A stretch of DNA of 64,000 bases. It comes from a phage. Of this stretch, positions 32,973 to 46,281 are shown one piece after another. How positions within the stretch are numbered: the stretch's first letter is position 1; every line of letters starts with the position of its first letter. The notes beneath the pieces are model-generated. The model made no database searches. It saw nothing but the letters and a program-made list of their open reading frames with translations, and was not told the origin of the DNA. The stretch lies in the sequence record PZ445427.1; one strand, written 5' to 3'. The position numbers were made by a program, and so were the translations under genes.

Positions 32973-33143
32973 ATGAAATCAGTTGTAATTATTGGTGTTA
33001 ATACTCGTGGTATCCGTACTACGAAAACAGTTAAAACTACTAACGTTGCTGAAATTACTACAAACCCTAAGAAGTTTGATTTCGCTAAAGTCTCGGCAGT
33101 TATGACAGAACAATCTTTTAACCAAGCACTGGGAATTAAATAA
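32973..33143 (+). CDS. hypothetical small protein (56 aa)
   Basis: ATG after GAGAGGAAG; stop overlaps next start (TAATG). Confidence 0.4.
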   Translation: MKSVVIIGVNTRGIRTTKTVKTTNVAEITTNPKKFDFAKVSAVMTEQSFNQALGIK

Positions 33144-33586
33144 TGGAAGAGAATATTCTAAATGTTTTGCGTAGGGCTTTGCAGGAATCTAAGGTTGATG
33201 GTTCTGATAAAGAAGTAGCTAAAAGCTACCAGACCATAATCGGAGATCTTCAGCGTGTTGATAAAGACTTCATTACTTCTGAACAGTTTGTATCTTATCT
33301 AAAAGCTCAACTGAAAAGCATTAATCAGACGAAAGCTAAACTTCACGGTCAAGACCTTGATAATTATAGCTTGCAGTCTGCTCAGTATGAGTATATACTG
33401 AACAAATGGCTACAACAGTATCTGCCGCCTCAGTTATCTGATTCTGAGATTCGCAAATACTTTGCAGAATTAGTTAAGTTGAACCCTGGGATTACAAAAG
33501 GTATGCTGATGAAAGCGATTAAGGAAGAGTTTCCTGGTCGTTACGACGGTGGCATTGCTGCTCAGGTTGCTGGCGAATTTAATTAA
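33143..33586 (+). CDS. YqeY/GatB-C-terminal-domain-like protein
   Basis: 147 aa; blocks YLPPQLSDSEIRKYF and C-terminal GxxKGxLMKAIKEE...G resemble YqeY family. Confidence 0.45.
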   Translation: MEENILNVLRRALQESKVDGSDKEVAKSYQTIIGDLQRVDKDFITSEQFVSYLKAQLKSINQTKAKLHGQDLDNYSLQSAQYEYILNKWLQQYLPPQLSDSEIRKYFAELVKLNPGITKGMLMKAIKEEFPGRYDGGIAAQVAGEFN

Positions 33587-33594
33587 AAATTGAT

Positions 33595-33623
33595 TTGCTA
33601 AACGCCTCAAAATTCTGTATAAT
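33595..33623 (+). promoter_or_regulatory. promoter cassette driving an ORF-free region
   Basis: TTGCTA-N17-TATAAT at 33595-33600/33618-33623; no start codon within normal distance. Confidence 0.6.
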
Positions 33624-33629
33624 AGATTC

Positions 33630-34482
33630 ATAAATTAGAGAACAGCGAGCCGATTACGCTGAGTGAGTTTAGTGATTCCTACTAGGATAGCTATTCCACT
33701 GAATAGAGTCGGTGAGTTGGAGACTAGTAAGTACTCTGAGAGAGGCTACGAGCTAACGCTTATTGCTATTGATAGGGAACTGAAAATCTGCGGAAAACTC
33801 GGGAGCTGTCCCGAAATCTCGTAAACTCTTCTCTAGTTTATGTTAGTGGGGTGTCGAACTGACTTATGTGATAACACTGCCGTCCTAGTATAAACGGTAA
33901 TATCAAACCGTAACTGGTGGAAGATGCAGGTTCGAATCCTGCGGTCGGAAAGAATCAGATAACTCGGGCTTATACCGGATAAGCATTCGCTGCTGGAGTA
34001 CATACTATGACGGTTCAGGAGGTACGCCACCTGATCAGTATTAGGTTAGAATCGAAACAGCTAAACCACGAGGAAACCTGACGGCCTCAACCAAACTCGG
34101 AACTCGGGATCACTGCCTAGTGTGTGCCCCGTTTAACCTGAGACTAGGCATCCAGCTTCGCATCGAAAATCGGAGGTGCGATTCTAACAGACCGCGTGAA
34201 TATGAGAGTGGGAAACGCTGACATGAGAGATGTCACTAATGGTGCCCAATAGTACAGGTAATTCGCGATAATTCCTGTTGAGCGGCAGCAGTAGGCTGGG
34301 AGTCATGACCTAAGCCTAACCGAGTTCTTCACATACGGAGAACATAACCACAAAGTCACCCTGACTTAAACTGGAAGATATTGTCTGACGGAAGGGCTGC
34401 AGAGCTTAATCTGAGGGGGCTGACCCTACCTACCGTCGGGTATCTTTAAGAGCTTTTATAAGAGTTCTTAAAAATACCTAAA
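33630..34482 (+). ncRNA. candidate large structured non-coding RNA (about 850 nt), class unknown
   Basis: no plus-strand ORF >=60 aa; balanced composition unlike AT-rich spacers; hairpins (e.g. GCCTAGT...ACTAGGC); three AACTCGGG repeats; internal partial tRNA copy. Confidence 0.45.
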
Positions 34483-34557
34483 CGGGGTGTAGTCTAAGGG
34501 ATAGGCAGGAGTCTTCTAAATTCCTTTATGCAGGTTCGAATCCTGTCACCTCGGCCA
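34483..34557 (+). tRNA. tRNA-Arg (anticodon UCU)
   Basis: acceptor CGGGGTG/CACCTCG; anticodon stem GGAGT/ATTCC with loop CTTCTAA; T-arm GCAGG-TTCGAAT-CCTGT; CCA encoded. Confidence 0.7.
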
Positions 34558-34583
34558 ATTTTATTAACTGCTAGGAAAATAAA

Positions 34584-34784
34584 GTGAAAACACGATATAT
34601 AGTAAAAGTAGTAGGTGAACATTCACAAGTAAATACCACCGATGTTACAGCGCTAGCATTTGAAGTAGTCTCCGGTATAGTCATATTTCATAACGGAGAT
34701 ATCAAAGCTCCTGAATTTGCTGTGGATGCTAGCCTGTTTATTTCTGCAACTAAAGTAACTGTAGTAGCTAACTCTTCTAAATAA
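34584..34784 (+). CDS. hypothetical protein (66 aa)
   Basis: ORF with SD AGGAAAATAAAG. Confidence 0.4.
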   Translation: MKTRYIVKVVGEHSQVNTTDVTALAFEVVSGIVIFHNGDIKAPEFAVDASLFISATKVTVVANSSK

Positions 34785-34795
34785 TAAGGAAATAT

Positions 34796-35740
34796 ATGTT
34801 TACTAAAAACACTAAAGAACTGACTTCCGATCAAAAAGTAATTCGTACTATTAAACGTTGGGGTGTTGGTGCTGTAGTTGGTCTTGGCGCTCTTATTCTG
34901 GCTCTCAATTCCTACACAGTTGTTCAGGATGGTACTGTTAAGACTCAAACCTTCCTGGGTAAAGTTAGCCCGAACCCTGTACTGCCAGGCTTCCATATTG
35001 TTAACCCATTTGCTTCTTTTGATACTTTTAGTACGAAAGATATTTCTATGAAACTGGATAAACTTCAGGTTCCTAGCCAGGATAAGTTTAAGTCTACTGT
35101 TGACATTACCGTTATGTTGCAGTTTGATGGTGCTAAAGCTCCTATGAACCGTGTTAACGCAGGTACTCAGGATCAGGCTCTGAACAAGTACGTTGAAGAG
35201 AAGATGCTATCTACGATTCGTGAGTTTGGTAAGTCTGTACCAAAAGCACAAGATCTGTTCGACGCTAAGATTCAGGCTCAACTGCAAACTGCTATTCAGC
35301 AAGAAGTAGAGGAGTATGCGCGTCCTTATGGTTACACCGTTAAGCAAGTATTCCTTCAGGATATTACTCTGCCACCGGTAATCATGGAACAGGTACAGAA
35401 CACCAAAGTTCGTGAAGAACAAGTTAACGCTGCAAAAGCTGAACTGGCTCGTGTTGAACAAGAAGCACAACAGAAAGTTAAGCAAGCTGAGGCAGATCGT
35501 TCTGCTCGTGAAAACATGGCAGTAGCTAACGAACGTGACGCAGATGCTAAACTGTACGCAGCTAAGAAAGAAGCTGAAGCTAACGCCGCTCTGCAACGTA
35601 CCATTACTCCTGAAATGATTCGTTGGAAGCAGCTGGAAGTTGAAATGCTTCGTGCTGAAAAATACCAAGGTGGTGTACCGCAGACTGTTGTTGGTACTGG
35701 CTATGATGGTCAAATGATCATGGATATGCGTAACAAGTAA
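34796..35740 (+). CDS. SPFH/band-7 (HflK/C-, prohibitin-like) membrane protein
   Basis: 314 aa; N-terminal TM helix, SPFH-like core, long Ala/Glu/Gln-rich coiled-coil tail. Confidence 0.65.
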   Translation: MFTKNTKELTSDQKVIRTIKRWGVGAVVGLGALILALNSYTVVQDGTVKTQTFLGKVSPNPVLPGFHIVNPFASFDTFSTKDISMKLDKLQVPSQDKFKSTVDITVMLQFDGAKAPMNRVNAGTQDQALNKYVEEKMLSTIREFGKSVPKAQDLFDAKIQAQLQTAIQQEVEEYARPYGYTVKQVFLQDITLPPVIMEQVQNTKVREEQVNAAKAELARVEQEAQQKVKQAEADRSARENMAVANERDADAKLYAAKKEAEANAALQRTITPEMIRWKQLEVEMLRAEKYQGGVPQTVVGTGYDGQMIMDMRNK

Positions 35741-35763
35741 TAGTTACACGTAATCTTCGAACC

Positions 35764-35798
35764 AAGCCCGCGTTTCCTCCGAGAGCGCGGGCTTTTCT
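35764..35798 (+). terminator. rho-independent terminator
   Basis: GCCCGCG...CGCGGGC hairpin followed by TTTTCTGT. Confidence 0.6.
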
Positions 35799-35814
35799 GT
35801 ATTTAAGACAAAAG

Positions 35815-35850
35815 AAAAGCCCCTTACCTTTCGGCAGGGGCTTTGTTTTT
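35815..35850. terminator. bidirectional terminator between convergent transcription units
   Basis: GCCCCTT...AGGGGC hairpin flanked by T-runs on both strands. Confidence 0.6.
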
Positions 35851-36057
35851 GGTTTAGAACCATATACTCTTGTTACAGCAACCACCCATACGGGAGACCA
35901 ATCTTGACTGAAAATCTACTCTAGGGGGCAGGATAAGAGTAGGCTTAAAGGCAAACGGATTGAACACCGGTATTTGCGTAAACATTGCTGGAGAGCAACA
36001 ACGTGCTACAGGCATTGGGCAGCATGATGTAGGTTTTCTACAACACATATAAACTCC

Positions 36058-36477
36058 TTAGGATTTCTCCCCATTTTGCGCTTTTGCAACTTGACTTTGA
36101 CAGAAACTATTAAACTTACCCATAAGTGAAACAAGTTGCTTCCCATCCTCTGTTTTAGCGAAGTCTTCGAAAAGGGCTAGAACAGCCTGTCCTTCCGCAG
36201 ATACCTGCGGTTGTTGGGTTTGTTGAGTCATCTGCTGCTGTGGTTGCATTTGCTGAGGCATCATCTGCTGAGGCACCATTTGTTGCATTTGCATTTGCGG
36301 CTGCATTTGCATCTGGTTGATGTTTCCCTGCGGGTTTTGCAGGGAATTTTGCATTTGCTGTGCTTCTGCCAATCTCTGTTGCAACTGTTGTAAGTAGGGG
36401 TTATCCAGCCCCGGAACGGGCTGCTGGGAGCCCATACTTTGATTAAATCCGTTGTTCACAAAACCATATTTACTCAT
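36058..36477 (-). CDS. Gln/Met-rich low-complexity protein (139 aa)
   Basis: about 40% Q in central region (QMQPQMQMQQMVPQQMMPQQMQPQQQ); structured C-terminus. Confidence 0.55.
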   Translation of the reverse strand: MSKYGFVNNGFNQSMGSQQPVPGLDNPYLQQLQQRLAEAQQMQNSLQNPQGNINQMQMQPQMQMQQMVPQQMMPQQMQPQQQMTQQTQQPQVSAEGQAVLALFEDFAKTEDGKQLVSLMGKFNSFCQSQVAKAQNGEKS

Positions 36478-36499
36478 GATGGGCTCCTCCCCTTAATTA

Positions 36500-37495
36500 T
36501 TAAGCCGGCAGTTTAGCCTGCAGACCAGCCAGAGTCTGAGTGATAGCACCAAGACTTACAGCGATTTGGTTGATTACCTGACCGTTAGCACCGCTACCCT
36601 GAGCGATAGCTTCACGCAGACGGCATTCGTTCAGTTCGTCCTGAATACGCGCAGTAGTTACACCAGCGATTGCAGACTGAAGTTCACAGCAGCATTCAGC
36701 GATCTGACGTTCCAGAGCGTTCTGGTTAGCACAAGCCTGAGCAGCTACAGCAGCGAACTGGTTGTTAGTCTGGATAGACTGAGCAAACATGATCTGAGCG
36801 GTATCGAACTTGTCTTGAGCACGTGCGATCTGGTTAGCAGCGAAAGCTTGATCCATTTGACGAGAAAGATCGAACTGACCCTGAATAACATTACGAGTTT
36901 CCTGACAGATCTGGTTGGACAGGTTAGCACCAGTACCGTAGATCGTAGTCAGAAGCTGTTGAGTACTAGCAGCTTGAGCAGCTCCTACACCATTTACTGC
37001 ACTCAGAACAGCACCAGTACCCTGATTAGCTTCAGTACGAGTAGTGTTGATTGCAGCTAGAATACTTGCAGTATCCTGGTTAGAAAGGATCGCATCCACA
37101 GCAGTTCCCTCAGCGGCAACACCAGCACCGCGGCCAAAACCACCGAAACCACCGAATCCGCCTGTTAATAGAGCACCGATTAGGATAGCTCCGAATAGAC
37201 CCATACCTTCACCACCGAAAGCACCATTAGCAACTGCTGGGTAACCACCCATTAGGCCAGGGAAGCCACTAGTGAATACGTTTACTGGTTCTTGCATTTT
37301 ATGTTTTCCATGTTTATGACAATGTTCATCATCGTCATCTTCTTCATCATTTTCATCGTGTTCACGATGTTCTTTTTCGTAGGCCTTGACCTTCTCCCAC
37401 TTTTTCTTGTCTGATTCTTCGTGACGACGCAGTTCTGCTGCTACGCCAGCGACCGTATCAGGACTCTTAGCTACTTCTTCTGTCATTTTTGACAC
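36500..37495 (-). CDS. membrane protein with His/acidic N-terminus and glycine-zipper segment (331 aa)
   Basis: HREHDENDEEDDDDEHCHKHGKH; Gly-zipper GGFGGFGGFGRG with hydrophobic stretch; Ala/Gln-rich C-terminal half with CCCELQ. Confidence 0.55.
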   Translation of the reverse strand: MSKMTEEVAKSPDTVAGVAAELRRHEESDKKKWEKVKAYEKEHREHDENDEEDDDDEHCHKHGKHKMQEPVNVFTSGFPGLMGGYPAVANGAFGGEGMGLFGAILIGALLTGGFGGFGGFGRGAGVAAEGTAVDAILSNQDTASILAAINTTRTEANQGTGAVLSAVNGVGAAQAASTQQLLTTIYGTGANLSNQICQETRNVIQGQFDLSRQMDQAFAANQIARAQDKFDTAQIMFAQSIQTNNQFAAVAAQACANQNALERQIAECCCELQSAIAGVTTARIQDELNECRLREAIAQGSGANGQVINQIAVSLGAITQTLAGLQAKLPA

Positions 37496-37547
37496 CTCCT
37501 AGTATATAGAAAATGTGTGTCTCTTTGATCACTCATCCATATCATAT

Positions 37548-37576
37548 ACTTTACATTACCCCAGCGAAAATGTCAA
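37548..37576 (-). promoter_or_regulatory. sigma70-like promoter for the 37495..36058 operon (minus strand)
   Basis: minus-strand TTGACA-N17-TAAAGT, then AGGAGGTG SD and ATG 37495. Confidence 0.5.
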
Positions 37577-37692
37577 GGGGTCTTTAAAAATTGCCCCCGG
37601 ATTTTTAGTGGGGTAACAATTTCTGGACTTCACCACTCACCTGCTACCCTTAAGTGCCCTGCGATTTTCCACTAAAAAGTTTAAAAATTCGA

Positions 37693-37721
37693 TTGCTTGA
37701 ATGCTAAATTCTCTGTATAAT
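37693..37721 (+). promoter_or_regulatory. promoter cassette (TTGCTT-N17-TATAAT)
   Basis: leader AAATTTGAGAGAGGAATCAAAT then ATG 37752. Confidence 0.6.
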
Positions 37722-37751
37722 ATATTTATAAATTTGAGAGAGGAATCAAAT

Positions 37752-38807
37752 ATGATTAAGACTGGTCTAGTAATTGGTAAGTTCGCACCATTAACGCGTG
37801 GTCATATTAACCTAATAAACACAGCAGCAACTATGTGTGAACGAGTTATTGTTGTAGTTAGTCATGATAATCGTTGGCTGGATAAGCAGAACACACGTGA
37901 TCAGGAAGTATTACAGTTAAAGAATCGACTTCGTTGGTTAGAACAAACTTACGCGGATATTGAGCACATTTCGGTAGAGTACATTATTGAAGATGATATT
38001 CCTGAATATCCGAATGGTTGGCCGGAATATGCTAGAATCCTTAATGAAAATTACGGACATTTGCCTGAGATCACCATTTTCTCTAGCGAACTAGACTATG
38101 ATGCAGAATATAAGAAATATCTGCCGAAGTTTGGTCATTATATTGTAGATTCTGATCGGACTCGTGTTCCAATCTCAGCTACAATGATTCGTAATGATCT
38201 TATGAAGTATTGGGAGTTTCTTCCTAGCGTAGTTCGTAAAGATTACGTGCGTAAGGTTGTAATCATTGGGACTGAAAGCTCGGGAAAGACTACTTTAACA
38301 AAATACCTTGCGAAGCTATACAACACTTCGTGGGTAGAAGAATATGGCCGAACGTATTGTGAAGTTGATCTAGTTGGTAACGAAAATCTACTTACCAGTG
38401 AAGATTATAGTAAAATTGCGTTCAGACACAAAGAGCTAGAGTTTGAAGCAGAACGTACTGCAAATAAGATCATGTTTGTGGATACAAATGCTTTTATTAC
38501 TGAGTTCTACCACAGACTTTATGAACATCGTAAGAATCCTGTGGTTACAGCAATTGCAAAAGAAGAACATTACGATTTAGTAATTGTTCTAGCGCCTACT
38601 GTTAAGTGGGTAGATGATGGTTTACGTATTAACTCCGATCGTTCAATTACTTCTGAACTGTTCGAGCAGATGAAGAAAGAATTTCCAAATCAGTTCCCTG
38701 AAGGGCGTACTGTTTACATCGACTCCCCGGACTACAAAGTTCGTATGGACGAAGCAGTAAACGCAGTAGACTGGCTGATTCATCACTTTAACGTTGGAGA
38801 GTTTTAA
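37752..38807 (+). CDS. NadR-like bifunctional NMN adenylyltransferase / ribosylnicotinamide kinase
   Basis: nucleotidyltransferase motif GKFAPLTRGH; Walker A IIGTESSGKTTL (compare NadR GGESSGKS); start at internal ATG after SD. Confidence 0.7.
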   Translation: MIKTGLVIGKFAPLTRGHINLINTAATMCERVIVVVSHDNRWLDKQNTRDQEVLQLKNRLRWLEQTYADIEHISVEYIIEDDIPEYPNGWPEYARILNENYGHLPEITIFSSELDYDAEYKKYLPKFGHYIVDSDRTRVPISATMIRNDLMKYWEFLPSVVRKDYVRKVVIIGTESSGKTTLTKYLAKLYNTSWVEEYGRTYCEVDLVGNENLLTSEDYSKIAFRHKELEFEAERTANKIMFVDTNAFITEFYHRLYEHRKNPVVTAIAKEEHYDLVIVLAPTVKWVDDGLRINSDRSITSELFEQMKKEFPNQFPEGRTVYIDSPDYKVRMDEAVNAVDWLIHHFNVGEF

Positions 38808-38808
38808 T

Positions 38809-39486
38809 ATGACTAACTATCTTGTAAATGACTTTAAAAACTGGAAACCTTTGGAATATCTGTGGCTGTTTATAGCAGTCGCCTTTATTAGTTTAGCAAA
38901 CTATAATGGTACAGCTCTAGATTGGGCTACTGCAATAACCAATGTGGTTTGTGTTATTCTGGTTGCAAAAGGACGTGTTTCCAACTATATTTGGGGCTTA
39001 GTGGGTGTTCTTACATATGGTATTACAGCTTTAAACGCAGATCTTTATGGTAACGCTGCACTAAACCTGCTATACTACGTTCCTATGCAGTTTTATGGAA
39101 TGTACTTATGGCATAAAAATAAGCCAAGTAATCTGCCAGATGTTCCAACTAAGGTTCTGACTAAAGCCCAAGCTCTGCTGACTCTAGGGATTCTAGCAGT
39201 AGCCACGTTAGGGTATGGTAGTTTCTTAGCTACTACGGCTGATCCATTCCCAATGTTGGATGCATTTACTGCGGTAGGTAGTGTGATCGCTATGTGGCTT
39301 ATGGTTAAGCAGTATGCCGAGCAGTGGCTGATCTGGATTGCTATTAACATTGGTACTGTGTACATTTGGCTTGTAACTGCTCAATCTACAGGTGCATCTT
39401 ATGCAATCCTAGCAATGTGGCTAGTATTCTTAGGTAACTCTATTATGGGAGCCTATAAAGGATACTTTGTACGCGTTAACAAATAA
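38809..39486 (+). CDS. PnuC-like nicotinamide riboside transporter
   Basis: about 225 aa polytopic membrane protein with W-rich helices; immediately follows NadR-like gene. Confidence 0.6.
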   Translation: MTNYLVNDFKNWKPLEYLWLFIAVAFISLANYNGTALDWATAITNVVCVILVAKGRVSNYIWGLVGVLTYGITALNADLYGNAALNLLYYVPMQFYGMYLWHKNKPSNLPDVPTKVLTKAQALLTLGILAVATLGYGSFLATTADPFPMLDAFTAVGSVIAMWLMVKQYAEQWLIWIAINIGTVYIWLVTAQSTGASYAILAMWLVFLGNSIMGAYKGYFVRVNK

Positions 39487-39494
39487 AGTAGTTA

Positions 39495-39520
39495 TAGCCC
39501 TCGCTTAGAGGGCTATTATA
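39495..39520 (+). terminator. rho-independent terminator
   Basis: TAGCCCTC-GCTTA-GAGGGCTA hairpin followed by TTATAC. Confidence 0.5.
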
Positions 39521-39533
39521 CAGAAATTTTCAC

Positions 39534-39562
39534 TTGCTTTATATAGAAAATTTCTGTATAAT
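39534..39562 (+). promoter_or_regulatory. promoter cassette (TTGCTT-N17-TATAAT)
   Basis: upstream of 39593 gene. Confidence 0.6.
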
Positions 39563-39592
39563 ATATTTATAAATTTGAGAGAGGAATCAAAC

Positions 39593-39889
39593 ATGAAACG
39601 CATTGTACTTGCATTGACTCTAGTATCTACTTCTGTATTTGCTGTTCCACAACAGGAACTTTGTCAAGTTCAGGTTTGTAATAAGTTAGAACGATTTACT
39701 TTGGATATTTGGTCACACATTAAAGATAATATGGGTGAACAGTGTTTTGATATTGTTCTGCCAAAAGAGCAGGCTGTTCCTGGTGCTGTTCTTAGCTCAG
39801 AGTCACGTTGGTGGCAGGGTTCTTCTATCAACCCAACTAAGAAGTCAGTGACACGTATCAAACAGGTATATCAGTGCAATGTTCAGTAA
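39593..39889 (+). CDS. secreted small protein with signal peptide (98 aa)
   Basis: MKRIVLALTLVSTSVFA signal-like N-terminus; 4 Cys. Confidence 0.5.
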   Translation: MKRIVLALTLVSTSVFAVPQQELCQVQVCNKLERFTLDIWSHIKDNMGEQCFDIVLPKEQAVPGAVLSSESRWWQGSSINPTKKSVTRIKQVYQCNVQ

Positions 39890-39897
39890 AATTTCAC

Positions 39898-39926
39898 TTG
39901 CTTAATGCCGAAATTTTCTGTATAAT
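39898..39926 (+). promoter_or_regulatory. promoter cassette driving tRNA operon
   Basis: TTGCTT-N17-TATAAT; first tRNA starts about 15 nt after predicted TSS. Confidence 0.6.
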
Positions 39927-39940
39927 ATATTCATAAATTT

Positions 39941-40034
39941 GGAAGATTAACCCTAAAGGTAAGGGAGCTGTTTGCTAAACAGCCAGTAACTGTGGAGACA
40001 CGGTGTGCCAGTTCGAATCTGGCATCTTCCTCCA
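39941..40034 (+). tRNA. tRNA-Ser (anticodon GCU), class II
   Basis: acceptor GGAAGAT/ATCTTCC; anticodon stem GCTGT/ACAGC loop TTGCTAA; long variable arm; T-arm GCCAG-TTCGAAT-CTGGC; CCA encoded. Confidence 0.75.
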
Positions 40035-40039
40035 AATTT

Positions 40040-40117
40040 GGTTCTCAAGCTCATTTGGTATGAGCCGTCGCCTCATAAGCGAAAGGTAGGTAGGTTCGAA
40101 TCCTCCGGGAGCCACCA
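40040..40117 (+). tRNA. tRNA with anticodon CAU (Met or Ile-lysidine type)
   Basis: acceptor GGTTCTC/GGGAGCC (2 G-U); anticodon loop CTCATAA; T-loop TTCGAAT; CCA encoded. Confidence 0.6.
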
Positions 40118-40134
40118 ATTAATTAGGAGACTAT

Positions 40135-40320
40135 ATGTCTAGATTCTACGAAATGAAGAAAGCATTAGAAGAATGTCGGTGTAAGGACTGTCATGGTGGT
40201 GGTAGGCAGGATGATGCAGAACCTGGGGATATTTTCTGTAGAGAATGGGAATGTCCTACATGTAAAGGTACTGGTATCAACCCTGAATATGCAATTTGTC
40301 TAGACATTGAGCGAGGCTAA
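40135..40320 (+). CDS. small Zn-ribbon protein (61 aa)
   Basis: CxxC...CxxC (CRCKDC / CPTCKG). Confidence 0.5.
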   Translation: MSRFYEMKKALEECRCKDCHGGGRQDDAEPGDIFCREWECPTCKGTGINPEYAICLDIERG

Positions 40321-40660
40321 GATGGATATTTTTACTACTCCGGCAATAAACCTTTTAGGTGTTGGCTTGTTCCAAGCTACGGTGTATCGTACCGATGATT
40401 CTACTGATGTGGTAACGTTCATCGTACCTGAGTTCTTCCTAGAAAAGTTCTTTGAAGAGTTTGAGCAGTTCCGTGAAGAACACAATGCTCATTCCGATAT
40501 GGAAGATCTAGCAGCTATGTTCCCTGCGGTTTACGGCTATATCTTTGAAGGTAATGGCCTAGATCTTAATAAATCTGAACTCGTTGAACTTAATTGGGGC
40601 ATCAATTTTGAGGTTGGCTCTCCATTCCCTCGATATTTCCAGGGTTTAGAGATTCGCTAA
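40307..40660 (+). CDS. hypothetical protein (117 aa)
   Basis: ORF. Confidence 0.5.
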   Translation: MSEAKMDIFTTPAINLLGVGLFQATVYRTDDSTDVVTFIVPEFFLEKFFEEFEQFREEHNAHSDMEDLAAMFPAVYGYIFEGNGLDLNKSELVELNWGINFEVGSPFPRYFQGLEIR

Positions 40661-40668
40661 GATTACAT

Positions 40669-40745
40669 GGGGGTGTAATCGAATTGGCATAGGTACTGGA
40701 CTTAAAATTCAGGTTTTGTGGGTTCGAATCCCACCACCCCTACCA
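40669..40745 (+). tRNA. tRNA, anticodon UAA (Leu-type anticodon but class I length)
   Basis: acceptor GGGGGTG/CACCCCT; anticodon stem CTGGA/TTCAG loop CTTAAAA; T-arm GTGGG-TTCGAAT-CCCAC; D-arm not resolved. Confidence 0.5.
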
Positions 40746-40896
40746 AATTAAGGAAATAAAATGAAAGCTATTAAGAAAGCACTACGTAAATTTATGTACT
40801 GTCGTTTCCATAGTATTAAGGCTTCAACTAATGGTACGACTTACGATCGCTATGATCCTAAGTTTGGCTTACATTCTAAATAACTGGAGATAATAA

Positions 40897-41103
40897 ATGG
40901 CTAATCCTGAAATTACTGCACAGCGCTTTATGCTGAAAGGTATTATTGCTGAAGCAGGCATGACAGAAGAAGTTGCAGATTTTCAAAAGCAGTTCCTAAA
41001 TATTCTCACTCAAGCCAAAGAGCTAGGAGAGAAAGAACATGGCGCGGCTATTATGGCAATCACATTGGTTGGGCTTGATCTGGCAGAAGAATCAGGAGTT
41101 TAA
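40897..41103 (+). CDS. hypothetical protein (68 aa)
   Basis: ORF. Confidence 0.45.
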   Translation: MANPEITAQRFMLKGIIAEAGMTEEVADFQKQFLNILTQAKELGEKEHGAAIMAITLVGLDLAEESGV

Positions 41104-41133
41104 CTCCTCCAAGCAGAAATTTTAAAAATGTAC

Positions 41134-41163
41134 TTGCTTTTTACTTAAGATTTCTGCTATAAT
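41134..41163 (+). promoter_or_regulatory. promoter cassette (TTGCTT-N18-TATAAT)
   Basis: upstream of 41194 gene. Confidence 0.55.
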
Positions 41164-41193
41164 AGTTATATAAATTGATGAAGGAGTTAACGA

Positions 41194-41469
41194 ATGTCAA
41201 AACGTGTTACTTCAACTGGTGTTGAAAGTGCTGTTTGTAAATCCTGGGGTGGCTGGGAAGGTGAGATTGAATGGCTTTATTTCTACGATGTAGAACTTCT
41301 GCCGGAAGTCAAAGCTAAATGTGTGGAAGCTGGTATGGCTCCTGATGCAAAGGCTGATATCGAAATCACCATGACTAAGCTAGAAGGTCGTGTAATTACG
41401 CTCAATGATGATTATGAAGAAGTGTTCGAGCTTCCATTCAAACTGAGTGTCACTCCTAGCTTCGAGTAA
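41194..41469 (+). CDS. hypothetical protein (91 aa)
   Basis: ORF after promoter. Confidence 0.5.
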   Translation: MSKRVTSTGVESAVCKSWGGWEGEIEWLYFYDVELLPEVKAKCVEAGMAPDAKADIEITMTKLEGRVITLNDDYEEVFELPFKLSVTPSFE

Positions 41470-41505
41470 CTGATATAGCACTGAGCAAGTTCTTTAAAAT
41501 TTGAC

Positions 41506-41534
41506 TTGCTCAGTCCTTCAAAACTTGATATAAT
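41506..41534 (+). promoter_or_regulatory. promoter cassette (TTGCTC-N17-TATAAT) driving tRNA-Tyr
   Basis: hexamers 41506-41511 / 41529-41534. Confidence 0.55.
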
Positions 41535-41599
41535 ATTTATCTAATTTGGAAACATATTTAAAAGTGTTTAAATGAGAATTTTTGAATACTTCTAAATAT

Positions 41600-41687
41600 G
41601 GGCGTTTATTCCGTAAGTGGTAGCGGAGGGGATTGTAAATCCCTGGTCATTGCGACTCGAGTGGTTCGACTCCATTAACGCCCACCA
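41600..41687 (+). tRNA. tRNA-Tyr (anticodon GUA), class II
   Basis: perfect acceptor GGGCGTT/AACGCCC; D-stem TCCG/CGGA; anticodon loop TTGTAAA; long variable arm; T-loop TTCGACT; CCA encoded. Confidence 0.75.
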
Positions 41688-41704
41688 AATTAAAGGTAAA
41701 GGAT

Positions 41705-42196
41705 ATGTATATTGATCGGATAATTCAAGAAGCTGCAAATAGGGGTATTATACAGTTGGGTTCACCCGCTGATATAAATAAAGATCTAATATTAGAAAGC
41801 CTCACATTTGGTACAGCTAACTTTGGTCGCGATAGTAATCGTCGATATAGCTTGAAGTTATCTGCACTATCTTTTATCAAGTATAACAAAAGTATTGGAG
41901 AAAAATCCAGCTGTGGTTTTATTTACGCAATAACTAACCCAGCTTGGGATAACTATGTAAAAATTGGTATGTCTTCTGATCCTAAAACAAGATTAAGAAA
42001 TTACCAAACCTATTCTCCTTTACGTGATTATAAGTTAATACATTGGTCATTCTGGTTTAATGCTAGAGAAGCGGAGAAAATGCTTCATAATAGCTTTCCT
42101 GAACGGCTTAACGAATGGGTAGTGTTAGACAGAGGTGTAGACGAAATACTTTCCGAGTTTAACAATTTATCCAATAAGCAATTTAAGTCCTGTTAG
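41705..42196 (+). CDS. T5orf172/GIY-YIG-like domain protein (putative homing-endonuclease-type)
   Basis: 163 aa; block GFIYAITNPAWDNYVKIGMS...RL..Y resembles GIY-YIG/T5orf172 core; 3' end overlaps tRNA-Glu by about 10 nt. Confidence 0.55.
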   Translation: MYIDRIIQEAANRGIIQLGSPADINKDLILESLTFGTANFGRDSNRRYSLKLSALSFIKYNKSIGEKSSCGFIYAITNPAWDNYVKIGMSSDPKTRLRNYQTYSPLRDYKLIHWSFWFNAREAEKMLHNSFPERLNEWVVLDRGVDEILSEFNNLSNKQFKSC

Positions 42197-42263
42197 ACAA
42201 ACTGGTAAAGTCACTACCCTTTCAAGGTAGGATTTGCGGGTTCGATCCCCGCACAGGACGCCA
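42187..42263 (+). tRNA. tRNA-Glu (anticodon UUC)
   Basis: acceptor GTCCTGT/ACAGGAC; anticodon stem CTACC/GGTAG loop CTTTCAA; T-arm GCGGG-TTCGATC-CCCGC; CCA encoded. Confidence 0.7.
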
Positions 42264-42272
42264 ATTTCTGCA

Positions 42273-42348
42273 TTCCTAGAGTGTTACTGGACAGCATGTC
42301 GGTCTCCAAAACCGTACGGTCTAGGTTCGAGTCCTAGTAGGTTTGCCA
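42273..42348 (+). other. tRNA-like element with Trp-type anticodon arm (CCA); possible degenerate tRNA
   Basis: anticodon arm CGGT-CTCCAAA-ACCG and T-arm CTAGG-TTCGAGT-CCTAG are canonical, but acceptor pairing is only 5/7. Confidence 0.35.
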
Positions 42349-42354
42349 ATATTT

Positions 42355-42429
42355 GCACCTTTAGCTGAGATGGATTAGCGCTTGCCTGAAGAGCTTGAGA
42401 GGTTCGTTCAATTCGAACAGGGTGCACCA
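42355..42429 (+). tRNA. tRNA, anticodon probably GAA (Phe); CUG not excluded
   Basis: acceptor GCACCTT/AGGGTGC; D-stem GCTG/TAGC; anticodon loop CTGAAGA with weak stem; T-arm GTTCG-TTCAATT-CGAAC; CCA encoded. Confidence 0.55.
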
Positions 42430-42448
42430 ATTAATCAATATAAGGCTT

Positions 42449-42829
42449 ATGGAAACAAAAACGTGTAATAAGTGTGGAAATACATTTCCCTTGAGTACGG
42501 ACTACTTCTTTAAAAGTGGTAAGCAAGTCTCAGGAAAACAAAAATGGAAACCTATGTGCAAACAATGCGAAAGTATATCTCGTATTGAATACTATAATAA
42601 TACAATTGCCGAGGTTTTTCCTGACTTACATTGTGCTATTTGTGGGTATAACAAGTGTCCACAGGCGATTGATTTCCATCATTTAGAGCAGGATGATAAA
42701 GAGTTTAATATTAGTGAAGCTAGACGGGGTACGTTTAACAAAGAAAAACTAATAGAAGAGCTTGAGAAATGTGTACCTTTATGCTGTAGGTGTCACAGAG
42801 AATATCATGCTGGAGTTATTGAGCTTTAA
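42449..42829 (+). CDS. HNH homing endonuclease
   Basis: HNH motif DFHHLEQDDKEFN...CCRCHREYH with Zn-binding Cys pairs; start placed after upstream tRNA. Confidence 0.75.
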   Translation: METKTCNKCGNTFPLSTDYFFKSGKQVSGKQKWKPMCKQCESISRIEYYNNTIAEVFPDLHCAICGYNKCPQAIDFHHLEQDDKEFNISEARRGTFNKEKLIEELEKCVPLCCRCHREYHAGVIEL

Positions 42830-42843
42830 ACTGAAAAATGTAG

Positions 42844-42872
42844 TTGCTTAAATCCTTAAAGTTCTGTATAAT
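42844..42872 (+). promoter_or_regulatory. promoter cassette (TTGCTT-N17-TATAAT)
   Basis: upstream of 42901 gene. Confidence 0.6.
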
Positions 42873-42900
42873 TATTATATAAATTGAACTGGAGAACTAG

Positions 42901-43089
42901 ATGAAAGCACCTAAACCGAAATTAGTTAAGTTCGACTGCTGTGACACTGAAATCTTATTTACTAAGTTTGGTGAATTTAAGATGTGTGAATGTGGAACAT
43001 GTGGTTATGATCATGGTGATGGATATTATTGCAGAACCCTCGGGCCTTCTGAACTAATCCACTTCTCATGGCCGGAAAGTAAAGAATAA
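42901..43089 (+). CDS. small Cys-rich protein (62 aa)
   Basis: CC...CEC..C...C pattern. Confidence 0.45.
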   Translation: MKAPKPKLVKFDCCDTEILFTKFGEFKMCECGTCGYDHGDGYYCRTLGPSELIHFSWPESKE

Positions 43090-43091
43090 TA

Positions 43092-43167
43092 CGACCGTTG
43101 GCTGAATGGCTTAGGCGGAGGCCTGCAAAACCTCCTTATGTGAGTTCGAATCTCATGCGGTCGTCCA
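43092..43167 (+). tRNA. tRNA-Cys (anticodon GCA)
   Basis: acceptor CGACCGT/GCGGTCG; anticodon loop CTGCAAA (stem GAGGC/ACCTC with one mismatch); T-arm GTGAG-TTCGAAT-CTCAT; CCA encoded. Confidence 0.6.
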
Positions 43168-43174
43168 AATTTTA

Positions 43175-43257
43175 GGGTCGTTAGCCAAGCGGTTTGGCGG
43201 TGGACTGTTAATCCATGTCGAAAGACAACGTAGGTTCGAATCCTACACGGCCCGCCA
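43175..43257 (+). tRNA. tRNA, anticodon GUU (Asn-type) with unusually long variable arm
   Basis: acceptor GGGTCGT/ACGGCCC; anticodon stem GTGGA/TCCAT loop CTGTTAA; 13-nt variable hairpin; T-arm GTAGG-TTCGAAT-CCTAC; CCA encoded. Confidence 0.55.
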
Positions 43258-43360
43258 TATTCTGTGTAGAGTTAAGTAAACCGGTAGCCAACCAGCTATC
43301 ATTGCTGATATCGAATTCAGTCACAGATACCATTTTTCATTAACAACTGAGGAAATAGAT

Positions 43361-43546
43361 ATGACAACTCGTGCAATTGCTCGACTAGAAGCTGATCGTG
43401 ATAGTCTGATTAATAATATTAAGGTTTGGGATCAAGAAATTGAAAACCAAAAACTGACATTAATTCAAGATATGCAACAACAGAATGCCCGTCGTGAAGC
43501 TCTAAAAGAGGTTGAGGAAGCTATCGAAAAACTCAAAACTGAGTAA
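43361..43546 (+). CDS. hypothetical coiled-coil protein (61 aa)
   Basis: ORF with SD GAGGAAATAG. Confidence 0.45.
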   Translation: MTTRAIARLEADRDSLINNIKVWDQEIENQKLTLIQDMQQQNARREALKEVEEAIEKLKTE

Positions 43547-43554
43547 ATAAATTA

Positions 43555-43632
43555 TGCGATCGGGGCTGGCTTGGTAATGGTACTCCCCTGTCACGGGAGA
43601 GAATGTGGGTTCGAATCCCATCGGTCGCGCCA
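43555..43632 (+). tRNA. tRNA-Asp (anticodon GUC)
   Basis: acceptor GCGATCC/CGGTCGC (6/7); anticodon stem CTCCC/GGGAG loop CTGTCAC; T-arm GTGGG-TTCGAAT-CCCAT; CCA encoded. Confidence 0.65.
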
Positions 43633-43638
43633 AATAAT

Positions 43639-43714
43639 ACATCCATAGCTCAATGGTTAGAGCTACCGCCTCTTAAGCGGAGGGTTCTAGGTTCAAGTCC
43701 TAGTGGGTGTACCA
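43639..43714 (+). tRNA. tRNA-Lys (anticodon CUU)
   Basis: acceptor ACATCCA/TGGGTGT; D-stem GCTC/GAGC; anticodon loop CTCTTAA; T-arm CTAGG-TTCAAGT-CCTAG; CCA encoded. Confidence 0.65.
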
Positions 43715-43794
43715 AACATCAGAGCAGCGTGATGTACTGCAAAGACCCAAAGTCCGGGGTGGACTTCTTGATTCAAAGGAGCAGGCATTAATTA

Positions 43795-43905
43795 TCATTC
43801 TAGCGTGGTGGAGAGGGGACACCAGCTTGCCGAGGGTAGAAGCTCGTTCGATTCGAGTGAAAGAATGGTTCTCGTAAATCCGCACAAGTGATAGTAGGTT
43901 CAAGT
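43795..43905 (+). other. unresolved tRNA-like structured segment
   Basis: contains T-arm-like GCTCG-TTCGATT-CGAGT and GTAGG-TTCAAGT-CCTAC but no acceptor pairing at tRNA spacing. Confidence 0.3.
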
Positions 43906-43927
43906 CCTACCTAGATTGACTCATTAT

Positions 43928-44001
43928 GCGTTCGTAGTTAAAAGGTATAATTTTTGGTTGCCAACCAGAAGTTGAGGGTTCGATTCCCTCCGACCGCACC
44001 A
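43928..44001 (+). tRNA. tRNA-Gly (anticodon GCC)
   Basis: acceptor GCGTTCG/CGACCGC (6/7); D-stem GTTA/TAAT; anticodon stem TTTGG/CCAGA loop TTGCCAA; T-arm GAGGG-TTCGATT-CCCTC; CCA encoded. Confidence 0.65.
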
Positions 44002-44249
44002 AATTTAGGTTTCTGCTTCCTAGAGAACTGACTCCTAGATAAACAAGGCGATGAGTTTCCGGCCGGTTCTAGTCGCTGAAAATCCTCCCGACCAGGTAGG
44101 TGTAAGTAAACGAAAGTTTACTTATTAAGTAAGTCCGACACATCGGCGGGTGTGTTCTAGTACTTAAAGAAGGTCTCGCAAACTTTCTCGCTAGCATGAG
44201 TTGATAGCTCGGTGACTTACCTAATAAGTAAATTTATTAAAAAATGTAG

Positions 44250-44278
44250 TTGCTATTTAGCTTAATTCTCTGTATAAT
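44250..44278 (+). promoter_or_regulatory. promoter cassette driving tRNA-Pro/CAU operon
   Basis: TTGCTA-N17-TATAAT. Confidence 0.6.
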
Positions 44279-44310
44279 ATATTTTATAAAGTGAGTTAAC
44301 AAAGAATATT

Positions 44311-44388
44311 CTCCGTGTAGCTCAGTTTGGCCAGAGCGTTTCGTTTGGGGCGATAGGGTCGGGGGTTCAAATCCTCCCACGGAGACCA
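44311..44388 (+). tRNA. tRNA-Pro (anticodon UGG)
   Basis: perfect acceptor CTCCGTG/CACGGAG; D-stem GCTC/GAGC; anticodon loop TTTGGGG; T-arm GGGGG-TTCAAAT-CCTCC; CCA encoded. Confidence 0.7.
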
Positions 44389-44394
44389 AACAAT

Positions 44395-44472
44395 TGCGGG
44401 TTAGATCTCTGGTAGAGATCGCTAGTCTCATAAGCTAGAAAGAGGTAGGTTCGATTCCTACACCCGCTTCCA
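44395..44472 (+). tRNA. tRNA with anticodon CAU (second copy; Met/fMet/Ile2 type)
   Basis: acceptor TGCGGGT/ACCCGCT (1:72 mismatch, as in initiator tRNAs); D-stem GATC/GATC; anticodon stem CTAGT/GCTAG loop CTCATAA; CCA encoded. Confidence 0.65.
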
Positions 44473-44493
44473 ATTTAATAGAAGGATTTCGAA

Positions 44494-44658
44494 ATGAAAT
44501 TATTTCGTTTAAAAGTAAGTGATCTACGTTCTAGCAAAGATCGTAAGAAGTATCCACTAGCCCATTACGGTAAAGATGAAAATGAAGTGATGGCGGAATT
44601 TGGTATTAATCATCCTTACTTGAAAGTTCACTCTATTAAAGAAGTATACATGTATTAA
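44494..44658 (+). CDS. hypothetical small protein (54 aa)
   Basis: ATG after AAGGATTTCGAA; below 60-aa threshold of ORF track. Confidence 0.35.
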   Translation: MKLFRLKVSDLRSSKDRKKYPLAHYGKDENEVMAEFGINHPYLKVHSIKEVYMY

Positions 44659-44660
44659 AT

Positions 44661-44738
44661 TGACCGTTAACTCAACTGGATAAGAGTACCGAGCTTTTAC
44701 CTCGTAGGTTCTGGGTTCGAATCCCAGACGGTCAACCA
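44661..44738 (+). tRNA. tRNA-Lys (anticodon UUU)
   Basis: perfect acceptor TGACCGT/ACGGTCA; D-stem ACTC/GAGT; anticodon loop CTTTTAC; T-arm CTGGG-TTCGAAT-CCCAG; CCA encoded. Confidence 0.65.
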
Positions 44739-44755
44739 ATTTAAAGGAATTTGTT

Positions 44756-45073
44756 ATGAATATTAACAAAGTTCTAGGAACAATATCAGAAATGTCTGGT
44801 AGAGCTGGAAAACGCTTTACTGAATTATGTATTAAAAATCAAAAAGTACCAGAACATCAATGTCATTATTGTCGAGACTGTGAACAATACCATGAAATGT
44901 GTGTGGTTGAAGATTGGGTCTGGGATCAGATAAGAAAAGAACAATCCAAAGATATTGTTCTATGTTTTACTTGTATGGAACGACGTTTAGGACGTAAAAT
45001 TACTCTTAAAGATCTTAAACATGTTCCCTGTAACGCTCCTTACTTCATTGGTTTTAGAATGGAGAGATTTTGA
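44756..45073 (+). CDS. Cys-rich protein (105 aa)
   Basis: CHYCRDC and CFTC clusters (Zn-binding likely). Confidence 0.5.
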   Translation: MNINKVLGTISEMSGRAGKRFTELCIKNQKVPEHQCHYCRDCEQYHEMCVVEDWVWDQIRKEQSKDIVLCFTCMERRLGRKITLKDLKHVPCNAPYFIGFRMERF

Positions 45074-45280: not shown

Positions 45281-45299
45281 ATTAACTCAAAATAAGGAA

Positions 45300-46187: not shown

Positions 46188-46196
46188 ATAAATTTT

Positions 46197-46275: not shown

Positions 46276-46281
46276 AAATTC

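What the first reader, a model, noticed from the sequence alone, without database searches (positions are those of the whole stretch)
37693..39520. Phage-encoded NAD+ salvage pair (NadR-like + PnuC-like) in a genome that also carries Sir2-like and NAD-dependent ligase genes
Seen in sequence: 37752..38807 has an NMN adenylyltransferase motif (GKFAPLTRGH) and a kinase P-loop (IIGTESSGKTTL) in NadR order, and is followed by a polytopic membrane protein with PnuC-like features, under its own promoter and terminator. Elsewhere the window encodes a Sir2-like NAD-binding protein (17527..18369) and a split NAD-dependent DNA ligase. Inference: the phage may secure its own NAD+ supply for ligase function and possibly to buffer NAD+-depleting host defences; this is hypothesis only.
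Basis: partly seen in the sequence, partly recalled or inferred. Interest (0 to 1): 0.6.

Follow-up and report, generated by a model that had tools for sequence, protein, structure and literature searches.

The report
Phage NAD+ rebuilding operon (NARP3)
This T5-like phage carries a two-gene operon that imports nicotinamide riboside and turns it into NAD+, letting the phage resist bacterial defences that destroy NAD+; the pair is real, but it was published in August 2026 as NARP3, so it is already known.

Summary
Window 37752..38807 (+) encodes a 351-aa NadR-like enzyme with an NMN adenylyltransferase domain and a ribosylnicotinamide kinase domain but no HTH domain. Window 38809..39486 (+) encodes a 225-aa PnuC nicotinamide riboside transporter. 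Both get strong HMM support. They sit between a T5 early-type promoter and a stable hairpin.

The window is a T5-like Epseptimavirus. The two proteins differ by one residue each from Bas30_86 and Bas30_87 of phage TrudiRoth. That pair was characterised as NARP3 (Yan et al., Sci Adv 2026, PMC13464706; PDB 9X6F/9X6H). PnuC imports NR, NadR converts NR to NMN to NAD+, and co-expression restores NAD+ and phage growth against Sir2-HerA and DSR1. Every residue that paper names as important is conserved here.

The Sir2-like gene and the split NAD-dependent ligase are also confirmed. Phage T5 has both but lacks the pair, so the pair is an accessory cassette and is not required for ligase function.

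One thing is not in the literature I read. A conserved 98-aa secreted protein (39593..39889, phrog_6894) lies next to NadR/PnuC in three enterobacterial phage lineages. It also occurs widely without them.

The parts
37693..37721 (+). Sigma-70 promoter of T5 early type: -35 TTGCTT (37693-37698), 17-nt spacer, -10 TATAAT (37716-37721). It lies inside a 73-nt promoter/5'UTR module (37683-37755).
   Evidence: Read from the sequence. The module is repeated at 39524-39596 with 82% identity. The downstream motif TATAATNNNTTNATAAATTTGAGAGAGGA occurs 6 times in the window against 0 expected. The region aligns to the annotated T5 promoter P15a.
37736..37751 (+). 5'UTR with ribosome-binding site (GAGAGAGGA, with GAGG 8 nt before the ATG).
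   Evidence: Read from the sequence. The Sw2 record annotates an RBS at the matching position.
37752..38807 (+). nadR-like gene: 351-aa bifunctional NMN adenylyltransferase (residues 1-166) and ribosylnicotinamide kinase (residues 167-351), with no HTH domain. Equivalent to Bas30_86 of NARP3.
   Evidence: HMM hits. 350/351 identical to PDB 9X6F/9X6H, the only difference being R260 here against S. All 22 residues named in the paper are conserved. 100% identical to the protein of Salmonella phage bobsandoy.
38809..39486 (+). pnuC gene: 225-aa nicotinamide riboside transporter. Equivalent to Bas30_87 of NARP3.
   Evidence: HMM hits. E = 8.7e-33 to PnuC 4QTN. 224/225 identical to Bas30_87, differing at A25V. 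NR-binding residues N45, Q94 and N180 are conserved. 100% identical to the PnuC of phage EPS7.
39494..39516 (+). Terminator-like hairpin (9-bp G+C-rich stem, 5-nt loop) 8 nt after the pnuC stop codon.
   Evidence: -18 kcal/mol, z = -5.1, and 0 of 200 shuffles fold as well. Annotated as a terminator in phage Sw2. No canonical U-run, so the scanner did not call it.
39524..39592 (+). Second copy of the promoter/5'UTR module, driving the next gene. It marks the downstream edge of the nadR-pnuC transcription unit.
   Evidence: Direct repeat D2, 82% identical to 37683-37755. Exact match to the promoter motif.
39593..39889 (+). 98-aa secreted protein (signal peptide, 4 invariant Cys, motif SRW[YW]QGSSINPTKKSVTR), phrog_6894, function unknown. 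It is a recurrent neighbour of NadR/PnuC and a possible accessory, but is not shown to belong to the system.
   Evidence: define the family. It lies beside NadR/PnuC in three phage lineages. It occurs without them in most other lineages.
17527..18369 (-). Context only: Sir2-like protein, a possible NAD+ consumer.
   Evidence: Pfam SIR2 1.1e-21 and PHROG 2162 at 6.7e-107. 52% identical to T5.102.
7729..9682 (-). Context only: split NAD-dependent DNA ligase. ligA at 8711..9682 has the adenylation and OB domains; ligB at 7729..8511 has HhH and BRCT.
   Evidence: 96-97% identical to T5 ligA/ligB.

Best explanation
This is the NARP3 NAD+ reconstitution operon of a T5-like (Epseptimavirus) phage.

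A strong early-type sigma-70 promoter transcribes nadR-like and pnuC as one unit, ending at a hairpin (inferred from sequence and from homology to annotated T5 signals). PnuC inserts into the inner membrane and lets external nicotinamide riboside (NR) diffuse in. The kinase domain of the NadR-like enzyme phosphorylates NR to NMN with ATP. That also traps NR in the cell, which is established PnuC/NadR biology. The adenylyltransferase domain then joins NMN and ATP to give NAD+. These two enzymatic steps, and NR binding by the transporter, were shown for proteins that differ by one residue each.

Because the enzyme lacks the HTH domain of enterobacterial NadR, it is not a transcription regulator. 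The resulting NAD+ supply does not depend on ADP-ribose or nicotinamide. It refills the pool emptied by NAD+-degrading defences such as Sir2-HerA and DSR1, so the phage can replicate. This was shown by heterologous co-expression and is inferred for this phage in its own infection.

The operon is an accessory cassette in a variable slot of the early region, not part of the T5-like core.
For: - Domain and family assignment by three HMM libraries.
- 350/351 identity to the crystallised Bas30_86 (PDB 9X6F/9X6H) and 224/225 identity to Bas30_87.
- All ligand and catalytic residues named in the paper are conserved. NadR: K10, F11, H18, S37, E80, P84, Y86, G89, F110, S112, D115, V139, I141, K163, R167, K168, E230, D275. 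PnuC: N45, Q94, N180.
- The published biochemistry, structures, NAD+ measurements and plaque assays (PMC13464706).
- NadR-PnuC linkage is near universal in phages. 33 of 35 IMG/VR NadR loci have PnuC within 3 kb, and the other two are cut at a contig end.
- About 200 T5-like records carry the pair.
- Accessory status. Homology with T5 runs exactly up to the nadR start codon and resumes at tRNA-Ser. T5 has a Toprim protein (T5.076) in that slot. No NadR or PnuC was found in the 117.75 kb of T5 fetched.
Against: - Nothing in the sequence contradicts the explanation.
- The anti-defence role was shown only with plasmid-borne genes and unrelated phages. The native phage was not tested (authors' own statement).
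- The pathway needs external NR (EC50 about 4-6 uM in the paper). How much NR is available in nature is unknown.
- TIGR01526 scores below its strict equivalog cutoff.
- The promoter and terminator are sequence-level inferences. The generic scanners did not call either one.
Confidence: 0.9

Rival explanations
1. This is a housekeeping NAD+ supply for the phage's own NAD+-using enzymes (the split LigA/LigB ligase and the Sir2-like protein), not a counter-defence. The operon would raise NAD+ so that replication and ligation do not become limiting during a large burst.
For: The same genome encodes an NAD-dependent ligase and a Sir2-like protein. The operon sits in the early region under an early-type promoter. 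This reading is compatible with the same biochemistry.
Against: T5 has the ligase (96-97% identical) and a Sir2 homolog. No NadR or PnuC was found in the 117.75 of 121.75 kb of T5 that I fetched, so the pair is not needed for those enzymes. About half of the T5-like records that match the flanks lack the full pair: 201 of 401 cover at least 80% of the query. The published data show a direct benefit against NAD+-depleting systems.
Confidence: 0.08
2. The NadR-like protein acts mainly as a transcription regulator of host or phage NAD genes, as some database records state ('trifunctional NAD biosynthesis/regulator protein', 'DNA-dependent negative transcription regulator').
For: Only inherited annotation in some records (hits H3, H4 and H28).
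Against: The protein starts at position 65 of the 411-position NadR model, so the whole N-terminal HTH domain is missing. It aligns end to end with the two-domain crystal structure. The paper also describes it as lacking the HTH domain.
Confidence: 0.01
3. The functional unit has three genes. The downstream 98-aa secreted protein (39593..39889) would work with PnuC and NadR, for example by helping to obtain or deliver NR in the periplasm.
For: Homologs (58-79% identical) lie within 1 kb of NadR in three phage lineages with different gene orders: T5-like, Vequintavirinae, and jumbo phages of about 355-371 kb. NadR and PnuC are the only neighbour families shared between these lineages. In all 9 IMG/VR contigs where both genes were detected, they are adjacent.
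Against: The two genes alone suffice for NAD+ restoration and phage rescue. Only 9 of 35 NadR loci have the small gene. 16 of 26 IMG/VR loci with the small gene, most metagenome loci, and bacterial chromosomes (Mesorhizobium, an Oligoflexus MAG) have it without NadR or PnuC, next to unrelated genes. In this phage it has its own promoter after the terminator. All three linked lineages infect Enterobacterales, so a shared block moved by horizontal transfer could explain the linkage.
Confidence: 0.12

Closest known systems
NARP3 (Bas30_86/Bas30_87 of Escherichia phage TrudiRoth; Yan et al., Sci Adv 2026, PMC13464706; PDB 9X6H apo, 9X6F with NAD+)
   Same: Same two genes in the same order, with a 1-nt gap between them. 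One amino-acid difference in each protein (R260S in NadR, A25V in PnuC). All functionally tested residues are identical. The promoter region and the downstream small gene (bas30_0088) are the same.
   Different: Essentially nothing in the module. In TrudiRoth the operon directly follows the SPFH gene. The window has T5.077-type genes on the opposite strand in between.
Bacterial NadR (E. coli/Salmonella trifunctional NadR, PDB 8X7F; H. influenzae NadR, PDB 1LW7)
   Same: Same NMNAT and RNK two-domain core, same (H/T)xGH and ISATxxR motifs, same Walker A loop. E = 3.7e-55 to 1LW7 and 1e-51 to 8X7F.
   Different: No N-terminal HTH repressor domain. About 35% identity to Salmonella NadR (hit H54). 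TRGH replaces HTGH in the first motif (alignment). The gene is adjacent to pnuC, whereas E. coli nadR and pnuC are at separate loci.
PnuC nicotinamide riboside transporter (Neisseria mucosa, PDB 4QTN)
   Same: Same family (Pfam PF04973, TIGR01528). Aligns over residues 9-215.
   Different: Shorter, at 225 aa against 244 for the crystallised chain. The paper reports three NR-contacting residues rather than four.
NARP2 (NadV/Nampt plus NatV NMNAT-Nudix, e.g. Vibrio phage KVP40) and NARP1 (Adps plus Namat)
   Same: Same purpose: phage-encoded two-gene pathways that rebuild NAD+ against depletion-based immunity. The NMNAT domain is shared with NatV, and KVP40-like phages give 24-25% tblastn hits.
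   Different: NARP3 starts from imported NR, not from the breakdown products nicotinamide or ADP-ribose. It includes a membrane transporter and depends on the medium.

Membership tests
NARP3 (phage NadR-like + PnuC two-gene NAD+ reconstitution pathway) | Adjacent, co-oriented NadR-like and PnuC-like genes in a phage genome | tested here: met
   37752..38807 and 38809..39486, both on the + strand, 1 nt apart. The window is a T5-like Epseptimavirus.
NARP3 (phage NadR-like + PnuC two-gene NAD+ reconstitution pathway) | The NadR-like enzyme has NMNAT and RNK domains and lacks the HTH domain | tested here: met
   Aligned to positions 65-407 of the 411-position NadR model. CTP_transf_like covers residues 7-147 and AAA_28 covers 168-314. 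Full-length match to PDB 9X6F.
NARP3 (phage NadR-like + PnuC two-gene NAD+ reconstitution pathway) | Residues shown by mutation or structure to be needed: NadR K10, F11, S37, E80, P84, G89, F110, S112, D115, V139, I141, E230, D275; PnuC N45, Q94, N180 | tested here: met
   All are identical in the window proteins. The residue list is from PMC13464706.
NARP3 (phage NadR-like + PnuC two-gene NAD+ reconstitution pathway) | NR import, conversion of NR to NMN to NAD+, and rescue of phage from NAD+-depleting defence | not testable with these tools
   Shown experimentally for proteins 350/351 and 224/225 identical to these. Not shown for this phage in its native infection.
Enterobacterial trifunctional NadR (NCBIfam NF005988 / TIGR01526) | N-terminal HTH DNA-binding (repressor) domain | tested here: not met
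   The match starts at model position 65 and the protein has no residues upstream of the NMNAT domain. The alternative upstream ATG at 37701 adds only 17 aa. I therefore file it as NadR-like and bifunctional, not as trifunctional NadR.
Enterobacterial trifunctional NadR (NCBIfam NF005988 / TIGR01526) | Score above the curated family cutoffs | tested here: inconclusive
   NF005988 scores 256.1 against a cutoff of 201 (passes). TIGR01526 scores 272.8 against a cutoff of 341.15 (fails).
PnuC transporter family (Pfam PF04973, TIGR01528) | Score above the curated cutoffs over the full-length domain | tested here: met
   PF04973 scores 148.3 against 27.3 and TIGR01528 scores 121.2 against 42.45. E = 8.7e-33 to 4QTN.
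PnuC transporter family (Pfam PF04973, TIGR01528) | Polytopic membrane protein | tested here: met
   A crude hydropathy scan finds several hydrophobic stretches spread along the protein. The Sw2 annotation lists 7 TMDs.

The most novel reading that the evidence does not exclude
The conserved 98-aa secreted, disulfide-containing protein encoded just after pnuC (39593..39889, phrog_6894) is a facultative third component of NARP3-type cassettes in enterobacterial phages. It would act in the periplasm to improve the supply or uptake of the NR that the pathway depends on. The published system is described as strictly two genes.
Probability: 0.12. Interest if true: 0.45.

Novelty: already known. Interest (0 to 1): 0.15.

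Why it matters
NAD+ depletion is a common bacterial anti-phage strategy, and phage pathways that rebuild NAD+ decide whether such defences work. This operon is the third such pathway. It can also be moved into therapeutic phages. For this window, though, nothing new is added:

- The genes have been annotated in T5-like phages since EPS7.
- The idea was raised in 2024 (bioRxiv 10.1101/2024.02.11.579819).
- The mechanism, structures and anti-defence activity were published in August 2026 for near-identical proteins.

What remains open is the role in the native T5-like infection, where the NR comes from in nature, and whether the recurrent small secreted neighbour has anything to do with the pathway.

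Tried and rejected
- **Riboswitch or other RNA element near nadR/pnuC.** An Rfam scan of 33000..41000 at E <= 0.1 gave only tRNAs and one sub-threshold sRNA match elsewhere. The 5'UTR is about 25 nt, so I rejected this.
- **Generic promoter/terminator scanner.** It called neither the TTGCTT-17-TATAAT promoter nor the hairpin after pnuC. I supported both by homology to annotated T5 and Sw2 features, by the repeat analysis and by folding.
- **Function of the 98-aa neighbour.**
  - No Pfam hit. PHROG 6894 is 'unknown function'.
  - The AlphaFold2 model has mean pLDDT 76.
- **Other NAD-related genes next to the small gene where NadR is absent.** Neighbours were ribonucleotide reductase, DnaB, RNA ligase, SPFH, a CapR-domain protein and two-component-system genes. 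None was NAD-related.
- **More independent lineages with the small gene linked to NadR.** Metagenome and genome scans found only the same three lineages.
- **NadR-like protein as a regulator.** Rejected on domain content.
- **One failed script.** It failed only because of file naming and was rerun.
Full report
**What is in the sequence**

The region 37693..39520 contains two tightly packed genes on the + strand.

- The first gene, 37752..38807, encodes 351 aa.
- The second gene, 38809..39486, encodes a 225-aa hydrophobic protein. It starts 1 nt after the first gene's stop codon and has a GGAGAG ribosome-binding site upstream.
- An alternative ATG at 37701 would add only 17 residues and has no ribosome-binding site. 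The annotated start in related phages is the one at 37752.

**Family assignment**

- The first protein matches the NCBIfam NadR model NF005988 with 256 bits (cutoff 201), but only over model positions 65-407 of 411. The N-terminal HTH repressor domain is therefore absent.
- It also matches Pfam CTP_transf_like (residues 7-147) and AAA_28 (residues 168-314), and PHROG 3462 'nicotinamide-nucleotide adenylyltransferase' at 8.7e-154.
- It falls below the strict equivalog cutoff of TIGR01526 (272.8 against 341).
- The second protein matches Pfam NMN_transporter (2.9e-43), TIGR01528 PnuC (121 bits, cutoff 42) and PHROG 1880.
- It aligns to the solved N. mucosa PnuC (4QTN) at E = 8.7e-33. A crude hydropathy scan finds several hydrophobic stretches along its length.

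**Where the window comes from**

The 2.2-kb region is 93-99.4% identical to about 200 T5-like phages of Salmonella and Escherichia (Demerecviridae, Epseptimavirus: Sw2, Stitch, Sepoy, IrmaTschudi and others). Most of these records already annotate the two genes as nicotinamide-nucleotide adenylyltransferase and PnuC-like transporter. The NadR-like protein is 100% identical to that of Salmonella phage bobsandoy. The PnuC is 100% identical to that of phage EPS7.

**It is the published NARP3 system**

A search of solved structures returned PDB 9X6F/9X6H, 350/351 identical to the window protein. These entries belong to Yan et al., Sci Adv 12 Aug 2026 (PMC13464706). That paper names the Bas30_86/Bas30_87 pair of phage TrudiRoth 'NARP3'. 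It shows the following:

- Bas30_87 is a trimeric PnuC-type transporter that binds NR (Kd about 0.66 uM). N45, Q94 and N180 are essential.
- Bas30_86 converts NR to NMN and then to NAD+ with ATP. Apo and NAD+-bound crystal structures are given.
- Neither gene alone is enough. Together they restore NAD+/NADH depleted by Sir2-HerA, rescue T7 and lambda about 10^3- to 10^4-fold, and also counter DSR1.
- Rescue depends on NR, with an EC50 of about 4-6 uM.

I fetched the TrudiRoth locus. The window proteins differ from Bas30_86, Bas30_87 and Bas30_88 by one residue each: R260S, A25V and V18A. All 22 NadR residues and all 3 PnuC residues that the paper names are identical here.

The idea that phage NadR-PnuC operons form another NAD+ reconstitution pathway had already been stated by Osterman and colleagues in 2024.

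**Transcription unit**

- Upstream of nadR lies TTGCTT (37693-37698), a 17-nt spacer, TATAAT (37716-37721), and then ATAAATTTGAGAGAGGA.
- This 73-nt module recurs at 39524-39596 and again near 39888. Its core motif occurs 6 times in the window against 0 expected.
- One exact copy (12131-12159, - strand) sits in front of the D2 helicase homolog. That is where the T5 record annotates promoter P-N25.
- The copy in front of nadR aligns with the annotated T5 promoter P15a.
- After pnuC, a 9-bp G+C-rich hairpin (39494-39516) folds at -18 kcal/mol with z = -5.1. Phage Sw2 annotates a terminator at the matching place.
- The generic scanner called neither signal, because the -35 hexamer matches consensus at only 3 of 6 positions and the hairpin has no U-run. 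'Own promoter and terminator' is therefore well supported but still inferred.
- No Rfam riboswitch or other RNA family lies near the operon.

**The wider NAD+ context, and the ligase idea**

The Sir2-like gene (17527..18369, -) and the split NAD-dependent ligase (8711..9682 and 7729..8511, -) are confirmed.

Phage T5 itself allows a test of the idea that the pair exists to feed those enzymes.

- I fetched 117.75 of the 121.75 kb of T5. tblastn finds LigA (96%), LigB (97%) and Sir2 (52%), but no NadR, no PnuC and no small neighbour.
- At the syntenic place, homology between the window and T5 runs up to the nadR start codon (window 37755, T5 37794) and resumes at tRNA-Ser(GCU).
- T5 has a 172-aa Toprim protein (T5.076) there instead.

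So the pair is an exchangeable cargo behind a conserved early promoter. T5-like replication does not require it. This fits an accessory, counter-defence role better than a housekeeping one.

**How general is the pairing**

Of 35 NadR-like loci recovered from IMG/VR, 33 have PnuC within 3 kb. The other two are cut by a contig end. In GenBank phages, 790 records have a NadR-like hit and 778 a PnuC-like hit.

**A side observation not in the papers I read**

The gene after the terminator (39593..39889, bas30_0088 in TrudiRoth) encodes a 98-aa protein. It has a signal peptide, four invariant cysteines and a very conserved SRW[YW]QGSSINPTKKSVTR motif. It belongs to phrog_6894, of unknown function.

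Evidence for a link to NadR/PnuC:

- Homologs 58-79% identical lie within 1 kb of NadR in two other lineages, Vequintavirinae (about 146-148 kb) and jumbo phages of about 355-371 kb. There the gene is upstream of NadR rather than downstream of PnuC.
- NadR and PnuC are the only neighbour families shared between lineages.
- In all 9 IMG/VR contigs where both genes were detected, they are adjacent.

Evidence against a link:

- Only 9 of 35 NadR loci have the small gene.
- 16 of 26 IMG/VR loci with the small gene lack NadR and PnuC. So do most metagenome loci and two bacterial genomes.
- In those loci the neighbours are unrelated genes: RNR, DnaB, RNA ligase, SPFH and two-component systems.
- The two published genes suffice for activity.
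- The structure model (pLDDT 76) has no informative fold match.

I rate a functional link at about 12%. Co-transfer of a block among enterobacterial phages is the simpler reading.

**Verdict**

The mechanism is NR import followed by conversion of NR to NMN to NAD+, which rebuilds the pool that defence systems destroy. It is shown for near-identical proteins and inferred for this phage's own infection. The finding is already known, so its interest as a discovery is low.

Noticed in passing
window 39593..39889 (+); related loci L003, L005, L009-L013, L016-L018: A 98-aa secreted protein (phrog_6894) with 4 invariant Cys and the motif SRW[YW]QGSSINPTKKSVTR lies next to NadR/PnuC in three enterobacterial phage lineages with different gene orders. 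Elsewhere it occurs alone, including in bacterial chromosomes. No Pfam family and no fold match.
   Followed up: partly
window 37683-37755, 39524-39596, 39888-39946; also 12131-12159 (-), 19032-19060 (-), 30767-30795, 32936-32964: Repeated promoter/5'UTR modules of T5 early type (TTGCTT-17-TATAAT followed by ATAAATTTGAGAGAGGA): 6 motif matches against 0 expected. The copy at 12131-12159 sits in front of the D2 helicase homolog, where T5 annotates promoter P-N25. The nadR-pnuC cassette is bracketed by two copies 82% identical to each other, which could promote cassette exchange by recombination.
   Followed up: partly
window 37755..39912 versus T5 NC_005859 37288..37794 (L002): Cargo swap behind a conserved promoter. 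T5 carries a 172-aa Toprim-domain protein (T5.076, annotated 'DNA primase') where this phage carries nadR, pnuC and the small secreted gene.
   Followed up: yes
window 39514-39531 and 39546-39563: A perfect 18-nt inverted repeat (TATTATACAGAAATTTTC / GAAAATTTCTGTATAATA) with 14 nt between the arms. It links the tail of the pnuC terminator to the -10 region of the next promoter. It could form a second hairpin in read-through RNA or act as a leftward -10 element.
   Followed up: no
window 35741..37495 versus TrudiRoth MZ501109 69540..69803 (L069): The window, like T5 and Sw2, has genes on the opposite strand between the SPFH gene and nadR (36500..37495 is phrog_8119, and Sw2 annotates a second one beside it). 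In TrudiRoth the SPFH gene is followed after 263 nt by nadR.
   Followed up: no
window 16650..17165 (-): This protein hits Pfam HAD_SAK_2 (HAD domain of 'Swiss Army Knife' RNA repair proteins). PHROG 18062 and the T5 record (T5.105) label the family 'Sir2 (NAD-dependent deacetylase)'. That is probably a propagated misannotation, and it would inflate counts of phage Sir2 genes.
   Followed up: no
window 17527..18369 (-) versus T5.102: The Sir2-like protein is only 52% identical to its T5 counterpart. The ligase subunits in the same comparison are 96-97% identical, so the Sir2 gene is unusually divergent within T5-like phages.
   Followed up: no
window 34483..49408: A cluster of 29 tRNA genes found by ARAGORN. 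There is also a borderline tRNA-like Rfam match at 33879-33950 (29.3 bits, at the gathering score) that ARAGORN did not call. T5 annotates tRNA-like stable RNAs in the equivalent region.
   Followed up: no
database records H1 (MG065642), H4 (PV692321), H52 (OY978796): Questionable public annotations. A 99.4%-identical T5-like genome is labelled 'Campylobacter phage A148'. The HTH-less NadR-like gene is labelled 'DNA-dependent negative transcription regulator' in one record and 'tRNA nucleotidyltransferase' in another.
   Followed up: no
loci L025 (8400-9719), L074 (2918-4234); window 34796..35740: An SPFH/Band_7 protein lies within a few kb of the small secreted gene in two further metagenomic phage contigs, as well as in T5-like phages. 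T5 has the SPFH gene without the small gene, so this is probably coincidental.
   Followed up: no
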